64,000 bases of DNA from a virus (IMGVR_UViG_3300025648_000013); one strand, 5' to 3'; positions 766 to 44,902 are shown, numbered from the stretch's first letter. Notes: generated by a model not told the origin, from the sequence alone. Made by a program: numbers and translations.

Positions 766-1320
766 GTGAATATCTTTTATATCGATGAGTCTGCACAGCA
801 ATGCGCTGAGTGGATGGTTGATAAACATTGCGTCAAGATGATCGTTGAGACGGCACAACTGTTGTCTACTGCACATCGCATTCTTGACGGTGATGAGTAT
901 GTTGGTGAATCTAAAACTGGTCGTAAAGCAAAGCGTTGGCGATTGAATGATGGTCGTCAAGATGTTTTGTATTCTGCTAGTCATATCAATCACCCTTCTG
1001 CTGTGTGGGTGCGACAGTCGGTAGAAAACTATAACTGGCTTGTAGATCATCTGTTTGCTCTTGGCGATGAGTACACTTATCGTTACGGCAAGAAACATTC
1101 GACAATCGAAAAGCTTGGTTATCAGTTGCAGTCTCCACCTTACAAGTTGAAAGAATGGGACTGGACTCCAATGCCTTGCTGTATGCCAGACGAATACAAA
1201 GTGTCAGATGATCCTGTATTGAACTATCGAAACTATTATGTCAATGCGAAGGCATATCTGAAAAGTTATAAGAATCGTCAACCACCGCCATGGTGGCCAG
1301 ACGATTCTGGTGTCTTTTAA
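766..1320 (+). CDS. pyrimidine-dimer DNA glycosylase / endonuclease V-like protein
   Basis: MNIFY...DKHCVKMIVETAQLLSTAH, HINHPSAVWVR and YRNYY motifs typical of the phage family. Confidence 0.8.
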   Translation: MNIFYIDESAQQCAEWMVDKHCVKMIVETAQLLSTAHRILDGDEYVGESKTGRKAKRWRLNDGRQDVLYSASHINHPSAVWVRQSVENYNWLVDHLFALGDEYTYRYGKKHSTIEKLGYQLQSPPYKLKEWDWTPMPCCMPDEYKVSDDPVLNYRNYYVNAKAYLKSYKNRQPPPWWPDDSGVF

Positions 1321-2053
1321 AATTACCAGGGTCGTACATTTTACCACAGTGCTTACATTCTATTTTTGCTGGTTTGGTAAATGATGTAACTTTACGTCCC
1401 TTTCTACTCCTTAGAATTTTTAATTCTTTGGCACGCTCTTCTCCGTGAATTTCTTCATACGTTTTCCCTTTGAGATATTCTTTCGAAACGCCAGTGGTAC
1501 GTTTTCGTATTTGTTCTTTTAGCACTTGCGCCTTTTCCTCGCCGTAAATCTCCTCATATCTCTTACCCTGTCTTTTGGAACGCAGAGCGTCTTTCGTAAT
1601 TTCTGTATGATGCTTTCCAAGCATTCCTCTCGGATGAGTTTTATCTGGACTTTTATTCCACGACATTAACGAGTTGCTGTCCAATTCTTCTTTCATTTTA
1701 TCACTCCGGCGCTGTCGTCTATTTTTGGTCCAGTATTTTTTCGCGCCTTCTTGCATCTTTTGTTTTTGTACGGTGGATCTTGGAGAACTATTACCCTCTC
1801 CACCCTCGCATACATTATGCAATATTCCGTTTGGATCTATATTTTTCCTACCATACCACCTAATATATCGTCTTTCAAGAGCACATGCTCCTACATTACT
1901 AAGGCGTGTTTCGAGAAATACAATTTTAGATGTGTCTTTAGGAGTAGATATTCTACCATGATCTATAAATGCCCTTGTGCCTTTACCTTTACCGATATAG
2001 TATGGTGTGTTAGCCGAAGATCGTAAATAGGCATATACGTAATAAATAAACAT
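1241..2053 (-). mobile_element. free-standing GIY-YIG homing endonuclease with NUMOD3-like repeats and C-terminal zinc finger
   Basis: YYVYAYLR...PYYIGKG...R, conserved E and N, HTEITK motif, CKHCGK; own late promoter and RBS. Confidence 0.85.
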
Positions 2054-2120
2054 TGCTGGTGCTCCTTAATAGCAGTAGTGCGGTTGGACATGCCACTGTC
2101 GCGAACCGTATCTATTTATA
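2054..2120 (-). promoter_or_regulatory. late promoter (TATAAATA, 2120-2113) plus structured leader RNA with RBS hairpin
   Basis: Stem CGGTT/AACCG with inner GACA/TGTC, then AAGGAGCACCAGCA-ATG; matches the leader at 43824-43896. Confidence 0.7.
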
Positions 2121-2122
2121 TG

Positions 2123-2176
2123 AAAACACATCTTCACAAGTGGACTAAGCGTGATGCACCGGAATGGATAGCATAA
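2123..2176 (+). pseudogene. displaced original 3' end of the glycosylase gene (KTHLHKWTKRDAPEWIA*)
   Basis: Aligns with the current C-terminus KAYLKSYKNRQPPPWW and with the family K-W-T-K-R-x-x-P-x-W ending. Confidence 0.7.
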
Positions 2177-42511: not shown

Positions 42512-43204
42512 TTATGATAGATAAAAGTCAGTGTAACTTATAGTCATGTCTACTTTGACGTATTGATCTGTTGCACTCCACGATAAATCGATAGGTGACA
42601 TTGATCTAAGAAAACATTTATTGAAGTTGTATGTAATCAACTCCTTGGCACCAGCAGTATAAACAATAACTTTTGTTGTAAAAACAATATCATCTTTATA
42701 CGCAACTTCATAAGGAGATGCTGTATTTGAGAATAATCCGCTGCCACGACTTACATTCAGATCGGTGTTGGCCATAGAATATGATTTATTAAATGCTGCT
42801 GTCCCTGAAAGTGTGTTAACAAGATCAACGATACCTATTGGCCGACTTTCTGGAGCAATGATAGTCACACGTAATGGCTGAAATACTGGTCGATAAGGAA
42901 CATCTTCTAATGGACCATATCCATAACGTCTGATCTTTTCGGTGTCTAGAGAAACATCTGGAAGTTCAACTCTTTCTGCCAAGAACTTATACACCTCATT
43001 GTCTAATTTAGAACCAGTAAAAACGACTCTATATAAAGTCGATCTTAAAGTTCCTCCTGCGCCAGATAGCTCTGTTTTGAACCTTTCGATAGAAAACTCT
43101 TGAGGATCTACAGGCGGTGGCGCGCGGCGGGCAGTTACCACAATATCCGGATCTACGGGCGAGTCTGGACCTGTTGGTGTATTAGTAGGTGGATTAGATG
43201 CCAT
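42512..43204 (-). CDS. tail-tube-initiator-like (gp54/gp19 fold) protein
   Basis: Tube-fold motifs (LP...L, PY...F, LSW, V..SY); position in the block. Confidence 0.6.
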   Translation of the reverse strand: MASNPPTNTPTGPDSPVDPDIVVTARRAPPPVDPQEFSIERFKTELSGAGGTLRSTLYRVVFTGSKLDNEVYKFLAERVELPDVSLDTEKIRRYGYGPLEDVPYRPVFQPLRVTIIAPESRPIGIVDLVNTLSGTAAFNKSYSMANTDLNVSRGSGLFSNTASPYEVAYKDDIVFTTKVIVYTAGAKELITYNFNKCFLRSMSPIDLSWSATDQYVKVDMTISYTDFYLS

Positions 43205-43806
43205 TATCTTGAACCTCTATTGATAATCTGCTTAGAATCTTTCCAGACTTGATCTTTGCTTGCTTTCGCGAAGTTCTCAACAGGTAGAAACAATGCGATG
43301 TCCCATTCTGCTGGAACAATATAGATAAACTTCGATCTTAGATGACCTGTTAGATACTGCTTGATGCAAGGCTTGATGTACTTATTCGTAGCCGCAGCAT
43401 TCAATATGTTATAACTGATATTCAACTTAGCGTTATCACTCAGATTTGCATCATTAACATACGGATAGAGCATGTCCATCAACTTCGCTCTCAGAACTGG
43501 TGGTAGATAGTGTAGATTGATGCCGATGAAGCCGTCTGGAGTCTTCTTCAGAGGGAAAATCAATGGGAACATATCGTAGTAGGGCAAAGTCTTTTTGTAC
43601 TTTGGATCGTATTGGAACATGTACATACGACCAACCTGAATCTGATTGGTGATTGCAGTCTTGTTCGCTAGTAGTCGCGTCTCGGTAATACTGGAAAGCT
43701 TCTTGGCGGTGTTTCGAAACCAGTTACGTGCCTCTGTTGTTCGCCCAGGAACTTGCCCCTGTCGAATGCCTTGTGCTAATGTCTGATCGAATAAACCTAT
43801 TGCGAT
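43204..43806 (-). CDS. gp2: DNA end-protector protein (start uncertain: ATC 43806 or ATG 43866)
   Basis: GRMYMFQYDPK.K..LPYYD.FPL, GINLHYLPP..RA, W..A..LP. Confidence 0.9.
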   Translation of the reverse strand: MAIGLFDQTLAQGIRQGQVPGRTTEARNWFRNTAKKLSSITETRLLANKTAITNQIQVGRMYMFQYDPKYKKTLPYYDMFPLIFPLKKTPDGFIGINLHYLPPVLRAKLMDMLYPYVNDANLSDNAKLNISYNILNAAATNKYIKPCIKQYLTGHLRSKFIYIVPAEWDIALFLPVENFAKASKDQVWKDSKQIINRGSR

Positions 43807-43823
43807 GTCGAATATCCTAAAAC

Positions 43824-43896
43824 TATAAATAATAATGTAGATCGCGGTGCCCGCCAAGAAACCCATCTACTCTAACGCTTACAAGGAGCATCAGCT
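43824..43896 (+). promoter_or_regulatory. late promoter plus structured leader RNA, homologous to the leader at 2054-2120
   Basis: GTAGAT/ATCTAC stem, CGC bulge, GGT/ACC inner stem, AAGGAGCATCAGCT-ATG. Confidence 0.7.
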
Positions 43897-44835
43897 ATGT
43901 CTATTTATACATCTGATATGGAATGTCGAATATGTTTTCGAGATTTCAAGTCTACTTTATCTCTAGCTAGACACATATCACAAAAACACAATATACCATC
44001 AGAGACATATTATCTTACTTACATCGGCGACAACAAATGTGCGCTCTGTTCGTCTGCTACCAAGTTCAAACGACTAGGAGTTGGATTTTCATCCACATGT
44101 GGACACAAATGCGGCGCAAAGTTTTTTAGAGAAAATCTAAAAAATGATGATATACGCTATGATAAGTTTATCGATAAAGTCAAAACAAATCAAACTAAAA
44201 TATGGAAAGAACGTTATGCGGACGGCAGTATTGTCGAACTAAAAGAAAAGATGAGAGAAAGCAATACTGCCTCTCATCTTTCTCCGCAAGAACGAAAAGA
44301 GCAATACAGTAGATACTACACCTGTGATGAAGAAACTATCGCTAGACTAAATAAAACAGGCGCAGAACAATGTATTAATAATATAACAACAGGAAAAGCT
44401 GGATACGTATCCATGTCAAAAGGTAAGTTCACTCCCAAAAATCCAAGTAAGTATATGGGAGATCCCACAAACATAATATACAGAAGTTCTTGGGAACTAC
44501 ACTTCTTTATGTATTGTGACAAGCATCCAGAGATATCAGGATGGGCATCAGAAGAAATGACAATACCTTATGTCTCTCCTATAGACGGTAGATATCACCG
44601 ATACTTTCCAGACGTACTAATAAAGAAAAAAGACGGCAAAGTCATATTGGTTGAAATCAAACCATATACGCAAACACAGGAACCAAAAAGACCTAAAACA
44701 CAAACAAAGCGATACATTGAAGAAGTAAAGACGTATGTTGTTAACCAAGCCAAATGGAAAGCAGCGAAAGAACACGCGGATGACAAAGGATGGGAGTTTG
44801 TTGTGATGACGGAAAGAGAACTTTACTCAAAATAG
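43897..44835 (+). CDS. gp4: head-completion nuclease (TnsA-like) with ~170-aa N-terminal zinc-finger extension
   Basis: KGKF.PKNP.KY.GDP..I.YRSSWE, YFPD, VEIKP, NQAKW.AA; N-terminal CRIC...H....H and CALC. Confidence 0.85.
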   Translation: MSIYTSDMECRICFRDFKSTLSLARHISQKHNIPSETYYLTYIGDNKCALCSSATKFKRLGVGFSSTCGHKCGAKFFRENLKNDDIRYDKFIDKVKTNQTKIWKERYADGSIVELKEKMRESNTASHLSPQERKEQYSRYYTCDEETIARLNKTGAEQCINNITTGKAGYVSMSKGKFTPKNPSKYMGDPTNIIYRSSWELHFFMYCDKHPEISGWASEEMTIPYVSPIDGRYHRYFPDVLIKKKDGKVILVEIKPYTQTQEPKRPKTQTKRYIEEVKTYVVNQAKWKAAKEHADDKGWEFVVMTERELYSK

Positions 44836-44839
44836 AGAA

Positions 44840-44857
44840 GATGAACTTGCCTTTCAT
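44840..44857 (-). pseudogene. stub of the original gp4 start (ATG AAA GGC AAG TTC ATC = MKGKFI)
   Basis: Matches the gp4 N-terminal KGKF; minus-strand TATAAATA at 44893-44886 and a GAG RBS upstream. Confidence 0.6.
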
Positions 44858-44902
44858 TTTTTCTCTATAAATAGTTTGTGCATCGTATTTATAGGGAACG
44901 AA

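What the first reader, a model, noticed from the sequence alone, without database searches (positions are those of the whole stretch)
43824..44893. Essential head-completion nuclease gp4 apparently turned into a mobile element that replaced the native gene in inverted orientation
Seen: gp4 is on the plus strand, fused behind ~170 aa with C2H2 and CxxC zinc-finger motifs, and preceded by the same leader RNA as the GIY-YIG element at 2053. Just past its stop, the minus strand retains a late promoter (44893-44886), an RBS and ATG AAA GGC AAG TTC (MKGKF, 44857), which is the start of a gp4 pointing toward gp2. Inference: a gp4 paralogue gained a DNA-binding domain and homing-type expression signals, then displaced the resident gp4. 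It would act as both a selfish nuclease and the only source of the essential function, and it also supplies a promoter for gp2.
Basis: partly seen in the sequence, partly recalled or inferred. Interest (0 to 1): 0.8.

Follow-up and report, generated by a model that had tools for sequence, protein, structure and literature searches.

The report
Mobile zinc-finger gp4 replaced native gp4
In this uncultured T4-like phage the small essential head-completion nuclease gene (gp4) was cut out and replaced, backwards, by a longer zinc-finger version that carries the control signals of selfish "homing" nuclease genes, and this replacement has spread between phage lineages that otherwise differ.

Summary

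- **The gene.** ORF 43897-44835(+) encodes a C2H2 plus Cys4 zinc-finger arm (about 170 aa) fused to a complete gp4 nuclease.
- **The leader.** A late promoter and a structured leader precede it. A covariance model also finds this leader at the GIY-YIG gene at 2053. In IMG/VR it heads at least 117 stretches, mostly GIY-YIG, HNH and zinc-finger nuclease genes.
- **The unoccupied sibling.** Contig L026 is 99.1-99.6% identical to cassette-bearing contigs over 3.6-4 kb. It carries a 139-aa gp4 co-oriented with gp2, and that gene starts with exactly the "stub" bases.
- **The replacement.** About 1,038 bp (43804-44841) therefore replaced about 406 bp, in inverted orientation. The old promoter, RBS and five codons remain as a fossil.
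- **The effect on gp2.** gp2 now takes its late promoter, start codon and 21 N-terminal residues from the antisense strand of the cassette.
- **Spread.** The cassette is a 94-99.5% identity island in four backgrounds whose flanks are 40-89% identical.
- **Wider picture.** Zinc-finger-gp4 fusions are widespread and usually sit in the normal orientation.
- **Not shown.** That the nuclease drives its own spread is inferred, not demonstrated.
- **Earlier notes.** The scan had already noted the leader cassette in this genome and similar fusions on other DNA.

The parts
43804..44841 (.). Inserted segment (about 1,038 bp) that replaced the body of the native short gp4, in inverted orientation. The left junction is ambiguous by 2-3 nt.
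   Evidence: L026 matches the window up to 43803 on one side and from 44842 on the other. Between them L026 has 406 bp of short gp4. All four cassette lineages share the same junctions.
43824..43831 (+). Late promoter TATAAATA of the cassette, which drives long gp4. It lies inside the new N-terminal codons of gp2 on the other strand.
   Evidence: the position corresponds to the (A)TAAATA column of the 65-leader alignment
43803..43914 (+). Homing-endonuclease-type structured leader: hairpin P1/P2, invariant ACTCTAACGCTTA, SD AGGAGCA and ATG-NNT-ATT-TAT.
   Evidence: Covariance model R1: 88.3 bits, E 4.6e-20. P1 and P2 covary in 8 of 10 pairs. No Rfam family matches.
43897..44835 (+). Long gp4 ORF, 312 aa, stop TAG at 44833-44835.
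   Evidence: AlphaFold2 model with mean pLDDT 89
43897..44406 (+). Zinc-finger arm: a C2H2 finger, a Cys4 site (C48, C51, C68, C72) and long helices.
   Evidence: Invariant Cys/His columns. 721 representative proteins carry this module, in several architectures. Weak structural matches to Zif268-type and AFV1p06 fingers.
44413..44832 (+). gp4 head-completion nuclease domain (TnsA-like PD-(D/E)xK). It starts at an internal ATG (MSKGKF) that corresponds to the start of short gp4.
   Evidence: PF08722 1.1e-20. Foldseek TnsA 1t0f/1f1z, E 3e-4, prob 1.0. D239, E253, K255 and E220 are invariant in 22 long forms. 58% aa identity to the short gp4 of L026.
43902..43909 (-). Antisense late promoter TATAAATA embedded in gp4 codons 2-5; here it is the only late-promoter word upstream of gp2.
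   Evidence: The reverse-complement word is a family-wide feature of the leader (ATG NNT ATT TAT).
43204..43866 (-). gp2 (DNA end protector). Codons 1-21 (43866-43804) are new and are read from the antisense strand of the cassette promoter and leader.
   Evidence: phrog_429 matches residues 26-215 only. gp2 of L026 starts MAIGLFDQ, where the window has 21 extra residues and then AIGLFDQ. The frame stays open in L007 despite substitutions.
44842..44857 (-). Fossil of the native short gp4: ATG plus 13 nt (MKGKF).
   Evidence: Identical to the first 16 nt of the intact gp4 of L026.
44858..44893 (-). Orphaned expression signals of the native gp4: late promoter 44893-44886 and RBS GAGAAAAA 44865-44858.
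   Evidence: L026 keeps the same layout, with an identical RBS but a TATAAGTA promoter variant, in front of its functional gp4.
44866..44873 (+). Late promoter of gp48 (native, divergent partner of the orphan promoter).
43961..44335 (.). 375 bp (residues 23-147, both zinc sites) that are deleted in frame in the closest relatives (G001, L010-L014).
2036..2143 (-). Second copy of the leader in the window, heading the GIY-YIG gene 2053-1241(-).
   Evidence: R1: 57.2 bits, E 1.4e-11

Best explanation
**Shown.** The locus is an allele replacement.
- The ancestral arrangement is the one still present in sibling contig L026 and in all other T4-like phages examined. It reads gp48 <- | late promoter, RBS -> short gp4 (139 aa) -> gp2.
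- About 406 bp, from codon 6 of gp4 to the start codon of gp2, were replaced by a roughly 1,038-bp cassette lying backwards.
- The cassette consists of a late promoter, a roughly 65-nt structured leader, the start ATG-NNT-ATT-TAT, a two-site zinc-finger arm, and a complete catalytically intact gp4 nuclease. The leader is one that otherwise heads free-standing GIY-YIG, HNH and zinc-finger/PD-(D/E)xK nuclease genes.
- The old promoter, RBS and first five codons remain as a fossil.
- gp2 lost its coupling to gp4. It now begins at a new ATG inside the antisense strand of the leader hairpin and has 21 new residues. Its nearest late-promoter word is the antisense TATAAATA built into gp4 codons 2-5.
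- The cassette, with identical junctions, sits in four backgrounds whose neighbouring genes have diverged strongly.

**Inferred (about 45% for the last step).** Long gp4 is a two-in-one gene. Its nuclease domain does the essential head-completion job, so the cassette cannot be lost. The zinc-finger arm directs the same nuclease to cut genomes that carry the short allele during mixed infection. Repair from the cassette genome then copies the cassette, with short co-conversion tracts. The retained stub/promoter and the 5' end of gp2 act as the homology arms. After fixation the arm is dispensable and decays, as in the 375-bp in-frame deletion in the closest relatives.
For: - **Replacement.** L026 versus L005/L009 is 99.1-99.6% identical over 3.6-4.0 kb up to the last stub base, and 97.1% over the first 240 nt of gp2. 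Short gp4 lies between these flanks in one contig and the inverted cassette in the others. The junctions are identical in the window, L012, L005 and L007.
- **Canonical orientation elsewhere.** Seen.
- **Leader.**
- **Identity island.** Window versus L005: cassette 98.4-99.5%, gp2 89%, gp3 and gp48 only short matches of 70-83%. Window versus L007: cassette 94-95%, flanks 71-89%.
- **Co-conversion-like pattern.** L005 versus L026 has 6 mismatches in the first 111 nt of gp2 and 2 within 44 nt of the stub junction. The background is 16 in 3,597 nt.
- **Independent second case.** The same 305-aa long gp4 (P0021) is 99-100% identical in L019 and L020, whose flanks are 50-65% identical, with gp2 falling from 94 to 90%. 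L019 keeps a same-orientation fossil (MSYKGRFVP) with its own promoter and SD.
- **Third case.** L061 has the same leader, a separate zinc-finger ORF and gp4, all inverted, next to a 22-codon fossil of another gp4.
- **The arm is modular.** It is also fused to DUF7487, HNH (weak hit) and other PD-(D/E)xK-like domains. Some long gp4 carry NUMOD3.
- **Intact active site.**
- **Arm dispensable.**
- **gp4 as a nuclease.** gp4 is an essential, non-specific nuclease according to Benler 2020, as cited in PMC7824862; the PD-(D/E)XK prediction is in PMC1189080.
- **Known homing-endonuclease traits.** Late promoters, RNA hairpins and embedded host promoters are described in PMC2988022.
Against: - No cleavage, target-site or inheritance data exist, and the phage is uncultured.
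- Homologous repair cannot by itself create an inverted insert. The founding event must have been illegitimate, and no donor with a near-identical cassette in the normal orientation was found.
- The direction of the L026/L005 exchange cannot be read from the pair alone.
- Most zinc-finger-gp4 fusions sit in the normal place as the resident gene, and several lack the leader. The arm could therefore serve head completion itself.
- T4 gp4 is reported as non-specific.
- Whole-genome absence of a second gp4 could not be checked because the assembly is not held.
Confidence: 0.55

Rival explanations
1. Passive mosaicism. The inverted long-gp4 allele arose once by an illegitimate rearrangement at a divergent-promoter junction. 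It then spread by the ordinary, very frequent homologous recombination of co-infecting T4-like phages, helped by selection or hitch-hiking. The protein cuts no target allele.
For: - T4-like phages recombine heavily.
- The island edges coincide with the first usable homology, namely the promoter/stub and the 5' end of gp2.
- The leader is repeated many times per genome and could itself promote shuffling.
- The zinc-finger arm is deleted in five contigs without loss of the allele.
- The nuclease-domain tree mixes long and short forms, so gain and loss are frequent (quick tree only).
Against: - The same pattern recurs in three independent cases: the window clade, L019/L020 and L061. In each, a sharply bounded near-identical gp4 cassette sits in diverged flanks, with fossils of a displaced short gp4.
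- The cassette carries exactly the expression module of known classes of homing nucleases.
Confidence: 0.28
2. Accessory-domain reading. The zinc-finger arm is a functional improvement of head completion, for example holding the packaged DNA end for gp4 and gp2. On this reading long gp4 is simply a variant orthologue, and the inversion and the leader are incidental.
For: - Long forms are the resident gp4 in the normal orientation in at least ten loci: P0021 twice, P0014, P0007, P0006, P0034, P0016, P0011, P0004 and Marzo.
- The fusion point is conserved just before the KGKF motif.
Against: - The arm is lost in frame in natural relatives.
- It also occurs on unrelated nuclease domains and as a separate ORF.
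- This reading does not explain the identity islands or the fossils of displaced genes.
Confidence: 0.15
3. Assembly artefact: the inverted segment is a mis-join in a metagenome assembly.
For: None found.
Against: The same junctions appear in at least nine independent IMG/VR contigs from different samples and in four sequence backgrounds.
Confidence: 0.01

Closest known systems
T4 gp4 head-completion nuclease (Pfam PF08722 TnsA-like_N; phrog_218; Benler et al. 2020, cited in PMC7824862)
   Same: The C-terminal 140 aa are a full gp4: TnsA-like fold, invariant D...ExK and position next to gp2 and gp48. It is the only gp4 found in the sequence available.
   Different: - It is twice as long, with an N-terminal two-site zinc-finger arm.
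- It is transcribed away from gp2 instead of towards it.
- It is expressed from a homing-endonuclease-type leader.
- It shows presence/absence polymorphism against a short allele.
Free-standing homing endonucleases of T4-like phages (seg/mob genes; 'intronless homing', PMC2988022)
   Same: - A modular nuclease plus DNA-binding arm.
- A late promoter and a structured leader.
- A promoter for the neighbouring essential gene embedded in its own coding sequence.
- A patchy distribution among near-identical genomes.
- Identity islands with short co-conversion-like tracts.
- Decay of the selfish part after fixation.
   Different: - The catalytic domain is PD-(D/E)xK (gp4), not GIY-YIG or HNH.
- It is not an extra gene between host genes. 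It replaces an essential host gene and supplies its function.
- It is inverted relative to the gene it displaced.
- Homing activity has not been demonstrated.
MobE-type elements that carry or split host gene segments (Aeh1 nrdA/mobE, PMC3045599). The scan's own notes e1-119271 and e1-5896459 describe similar cases.
   Same: A mobile nuclease cassette brings along a copy of part of the essential host gene it invades, so that function is kept.
   Different: Here the host-gene copy is fused to the element's own DNA-binding arm and is itself the nuclease.
RBS-sequestering hairpins with late promoters upstream of I-TevI, segB and Aeh1 mobE (PMC2988022)
   Same: A late promoter directly upstream, a conserved hairpin, and the SD in a small stem.
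   Different: This is a different, much more widely shared sequence family (at least 117 IMG/VR stretches) that is absent from Rfam. It includes an antisense late-promoter word in codons 2-4, which is used here for gp2.

Membership tests
T4 gp4 head-completion nuclease | TnsA-like PD-(D/E)xK domain recognised by the family profiles | tested here: met
   PF08722 1.1e-20; phrog_218 1.6e-58; Foldseek TnsA 1t0f/1f1z E 3e-4
T4 gp4 head-completion nuclease | Catalytic acidic and lysine residues retained | tested here: met
   E220, D239, E253 and K255 are invariant in 22 aligned long forms.
T4 gp4 head-completion nuclease | Single-domain protein of about 140-160 aa | tested here: not met
   312 aa with a 170-aa N-terminal arm. 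Short relatives are 139-161 aa.
T4 gp4 head-completion nuclease | Lies upstream of and co-oriented with gp2, divergent from the baseplate genes | tested here: not met
   The neighbours are the same but the orientation is reversed. All comparators have the canonical orientation.
T4 gp4 head-completion nuclease | Required for head-tail joining; DNase activity | not testable with these tools
   Only one gp4 was found in the window and in a 68-kb relative. The whole genome is not held.
Free-standing homing endonuclease (seg/mob type) | Nuclease domain joined to a modular DNA-binding region | tested here: met
   A C2H2 plus Cys4 arm is shared with other nuclease architectures. NUMOD3 occurs in some long gp4.
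Free-standing homing endonuclease (seg/mob type) | GIY-YIG or HNH catalytic domain | tested here: not met
   The catalytic domain is PD-(D/E)xK.
Free-standing homing endonuclease (seg/mob type) | Presence/absence polymorphism between near-identical genomes, with flanking co-conversion | tested here: met
   L026 versus L005/L009; identity islands
Free-standing homing endonuclease (seg/mob type) | Cleaves the allele that lacks it; inherited above Mendelian frequency | not testable with these tools
   Needs enzyme assays or mixed infections.
Free-standing homing endonuclease (seg/mob type) | Dispensable for the phage | tested here: inconclusive
   The arm is dispensable (natural 375-bp deletion). 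The nuclease part is apparently the only gp4.
Conserved homing-endonuclease leader cassette (no Rfam family) | Late promoter, covarying P1/P2 hairpin, ACTCTAACGCTTA, SD stem, ATG-NNT-ATT-TAT | tested here: met
   R1 scores 88 bits at 43803-43914. 8 of 10 hairpin pairs covary. One P2 pair is non-canonical in the window copy.

The most novel reading that the evidence does not exclude
Long gp4 is a true homing endonuclease whose cutting domain is at the same time the phage's only, essential head-completion nuclease. It would be a selfish allele that drives by cutting short-gp4 genomes, cannot be deleted once acquired, re-wires the neighbouring gp2 (promoter, start codon, N-terminus) from its own antisense strand, and keeps a fossil of its victim as a homology arm for the next invasion.
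Probability: 0.4. Interest if true: 0.85.

Novelty: new variant of a known kind. Interest (0 to 1): 0.74.

Why it matters
Homing endonuclease genes are normally dispensable passengers that sit between or inside host genes. Here a selfish-type cassette has taken over an essential virion-assembly gene instead of sitting beside it, and has displaced the native copy.

- **An evolutionary route.** A host nuclease is recruited as the cutting module of a mobile element, in effect a natural zinc-finger nuclease.
- **A way for a selfish element to become irremovable.**
- **De novo coding sequence.** The 21 new residues of gp2 come from the antisense strand of a regulatory RNA element.
- **A testable pair.** The near-isogenic occupied and unoccupied contigs make the drive hypothesis directly testable in vitro.
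- **A portable module.** The leader, found in at least 117 IMG/VR stretches and absent from Rfam, is a widespread, portable expression module of phage mobile nucleases.

Tried and rejected
- **Rfam.** A scan of 43700-44000 gave no relevant family.
- **Single-sequence folding.** Folding the window leader on either strand is no better than shuffles (z -0.7 to +0.7). The structure rests on covariation across 65 copies, not on this copy.
- **Donor search.** No donor with the same cassette in the normal orientation turned up. The cassette 3' end pattern in IMG/VR found only the same nine contigs. The JGI metagenome scan gave nothing new. The next-best protein is only 45% identical.
- **Unoccupied sibling of L019.** None was found in IMG/VR.
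- **Zinc-finger loci search.** The search for related loci with zinc-finger alignments failed or returned only two loci, one of them new.
- **Fold search of the arm.** Only weak C2H2 matches (E 0.3-1) and generic coiled-coil matches (Z below 4) came back. No specific homing-endonuclease DNA-binding fold can be claimed.
- **Tree.** The careful maximum-likelihood tree did not finish, so only the quick tree is used, as weak evidence.
- **Simple in-place inversion of a resident long gp4: rejected.** The fossil is the start of a short gp4, and the locus holds two separate divergent promoter pairs.
- **L149 as an inverted gp4-gp2 block: rejected.** PHROG annotation showed its upstream gene is gp48, so the arrangement is canonical.
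- **Internal start at 44413.** The ATG is there and aligns with the start of short gp4, but no good SD precedes it. The Met is absent from many long forms. Internal initiation is therefore neither supported nor excluded.

Full report
**What is at the locus**

ORF 43897-44835(+) encodes 312 aa. Residues 211-306 match Pfam TnsA-like_N at 1.1e-20, and residues 174-311 match phrog_218 'head closure' at 1.6e-58. An AlphaFold2 model has mean pLDDT 89. Its C-terminal half matches TnsA (1t0f, 1f1z; Foldseek E 3e-4, prob 1.0). In 22 aligned long forms E220, D239, E253 and K255 are invariant, so the PD-(D/E)xK site is intact.

The N-terminal 170 aa hold a C2H2 finger, a second four-Cys site (C48, C51, C68, C72) and long helices. 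Structural matches are weak and only to classical C2H2 fingers.

The neighbours are gp2 (43866-43204, minus; phrog_429), a tail-tube-like gene, gp26 (PF12322), and downstream on the plus strand gp48 (phrog_230) and gp53.

**Orientation**

Every comparator has gp48 <- | -> gp4 -> gp2. This holds for:
- Stenotrophomonas phage Marzo and cyanophage S-RIM12;
- two IMG/VR relatives with short gp4 (L016, L017);
- the long-gp4 loci of P0021, P0014, P0007, P0006, P0034, P0016, P0011 and P0004.

The evidence is; for P0006 the contig shows only the gp48 side. The window has gp2 <- | -> gp4 -> gp48, so gp4 alone is reversed.

**The fossil is real**

The minus strand carries TATAAATA (44893-44886), GAGAAAAA, and ATG AAA GGC AAG TTC A (44857-44842). 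An exact-word scan of IMG/VR for the RBS-plus-stub word found the window's clade and one further contig, L026.

In L026 the same bases run on into an intact 139-aa gp4 (MKGKFTPKNP...). That gene overlaps the start of gp2 (MAIGLFDQ...), and both are divergent from gp48 and gp53.

L026 is 99.1-99.6% identical to the cassette-bearing contigs L005 and L009 over 3.6-4.0 kb, up to the last stub base. It is 97.1% identical over the first 240 nt of gp2. In between, it has 406 bp of short gp4 where the others have the inverted cassette.

Base-level alignment puts the junctions at window 43803/43804 (ambiguous by 2-3 nt) and 44841/44842. They are identical in the window, L012, L005 and L007.

**The cassette carries homing-endonuclease signals**

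The sequence from the late promoter (43824) to codon 4 is a conserved module.

Most ORFs behind it begin M-x-I-Y. They are:
- GIY-YIG with NUMOD3;
- HNH;
- C2H2-finger proteins, including one with a PD-(D/E)xK-like tail;
- further GIY-YIG-like sequences that Pfam does not recognise.

RNAalifold on 65 copies gives a two-part hairpin (6 + 4 bp) in which 8 of 10 pairs show compensatory changes, plus a small stem that holds the SD. It also scores 85-94 bits in front of long gp4 or its zinc-finger ORF in L022, L061, L149, L005, L007 and L009. Rfam has nothing comparable.

Other long gp4 genes lack the leader (P0021, P0014, P0034, P0016).

Late promoters, RNA hairpins and host promoters embedded in endonuclease genes are known traits of T4 homing endonucleases (PMC2988022).

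**Consequences for gp2**

TATAAATA occurs 15 times in the window against 3.8 expected. The only copy upstream of gp2 on its strand, apart from the distant orphan promoter at 44893, is 43909-43902. It lies inside gp4 codons 2-5 and is a family-wide feature of the leader (ATG NNT ATT TAT).

gp2 lost its own ATG at the junction and now starts at 43866, inside the antisense of the hairpin. Its first 21 residues are therefore new. phrog_429 matches only from residue 26, and the frame stays open in L007 despite substitutions. No terminator-like site lies between the orphan promoter and gp2.

**Evidence of spread**

| Comparison with the window | Cassette identity | Flank identity |
|---|---|---|
| L005 type | 98.4-99.5% | gp2 89%; gp3 and gp48 only short 70-83% matches |
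| L007 type | 94-95% | 71-89% |
| G001 type | 98% | 90-95% |

Between L005 and L026, mismatches cluster at the junctions. There are 6 in the first 111 nt of gp2 and 2 within 44 nt of the stub, against 16 in 3,597 nt overall. That is the pattern short co-conversion tracts would leave. Which member of the pair is derived cannot be read from the pair itself.

Two further cases point the same way:
- **L019 and L020.** They carry the same 305-aa long gp4 at 99-100% DNA identity, while their gp48, gp53, tail-tube and gp26 genes are 50-65% identical and gp2 falls from 94 to 90%. L019 keeps a fossil start of a short gp4 (MSYKGRFVP), in the same orientation and with its own promoter-like word and SD, just upstream.
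- **L061.** It has the leader, a separate 178-aa zinc-finger ORF and a gp4, all inverted relative to gp2. They abut a 22-codon fossil of another gp4 behind a TATAAATA.

**Age and modularity of the fusion**

About fifteen full-length long forms at 33-47% identity exist in metagenomes. The arm alone has 721 representative relatives, also joined to DUF7487, HNH (weak hit) or unknown C-terminal domains, sometimes in tandem.

Marzo has an unannotated homologous zinc-finger ORF that overlaps its gp4 in another frame. A quick tree of nuclease domains mixes long and short forms, with at least 4 changes forced by well-supported branches. The fusion is therefore old and recurrent, and it did not arise in this lineage.

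**Decay of the arm**

The closest relatives (G001, L010-L014) have a 375-bp in-frame deletion. It removes residues 23-147, including both zinc sites, and lies between short GCTAGAC repeats. The leader and the nuclease are kept. This fits a selfish part that is dispensable after fixation.

**What is not shown**

- No cleavage specificity or biased inheritance has been demonstrated. T4 gp4 is described as a non-specific DNase required for morphogenesis (Benler 2020, as cited in PMC7824862; fold prediction in PMC1189080).
- The founding inverted insertion needs an illegitimate event, and no donor was found.
- Only one gp4 exists in the window and in a 68-kb relative, but the full genome is not held.

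**Earlier notes of this scan**

Earlier notes had described the leader cassette in this genome, including the idea of an antisense late transcript (e1-5896435, e1-5896446). They had also described zinc-finger-gp4 fusions on other DNA (e1-5885930, e1-5783753, e1-5364355). I re-derived the leader independently. In this cassette the antisense promoter word sits where a gp2 promoter is needed.

**Verdict**

Horizontal spread is strongly indicated. Self-driven homing is plausible (about 45%) but untested.

Noticed in passing
L061:1806-3080: A more distant phage shows the same inverted layout but unfused. The leader is followed by a separate 178-aa zinc-finger ORF, a 26-nt spacer and a gp4 with its own SD. 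These abut a 22-codon minus-strand fossil of another gp4 behind a TATAAATA. gp2 there also starts (GTG) inside the antisense strand of the leader hairpin.
   Followed up: partly
L019:4826-5000 versus L020:4905-5000: Upstream of the identical long gp4 (P0021), L019 keeps a same-orientation fossil of a short gp4 (MSYKGRFVP) with a promoter-like word and SD. L020 lacks those 18 nt. L019 also has an extra 241-aa minus-strand ORF between gp2 and the tail-tube gene.
   Followed up: partly
L001:5992-6603 (Stenotrophomonas phage Marzo, MZ326868.1): An unannotated 203-aa ORF homologous to the zinc-finger arm overlaps the annotated gp4 by 100 nt in another frame. This could be a frameshifted fusion or two separate genes.
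   Followed up: no
L022:1772-2320 and L021:3891-4690: Further homing-endonuclease genes sit in the same neighbourhood. One is a phrog_655 endonuclease between long gp4 and gp2 in L022. The other is a NUMOD3 gene with the same leader (59 bits) between the tail-tube gene and gp26 in L021. The gp4-gp2-gp3 block looks like a hot spot for such elements.
   Followed up: no
alignment A2 (65 leaders), columns 40-73: Non-Watson-Crick cells in the hairpin are mostly A-C or C-A (9), with only 2 G-U. These would be G-U wobbles on the opposite strand.
   Followed up: partly
window 44842-44893 (-): The orphan late promoter is intact (TATAAATA) in the window, L012 and L007, and no terminator follows it. It may still produce an RNA antisense to the whole of gp4 that reads on into gp2.
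   Followed up: no
window 1241-2053 (-): A GIY-YIG endonuclease gene (270 aa) has a diverged copy of the leader, in which ACTCTAACGCTTA is replaced by ACTACTGCTATTA.
   Followed up: partly
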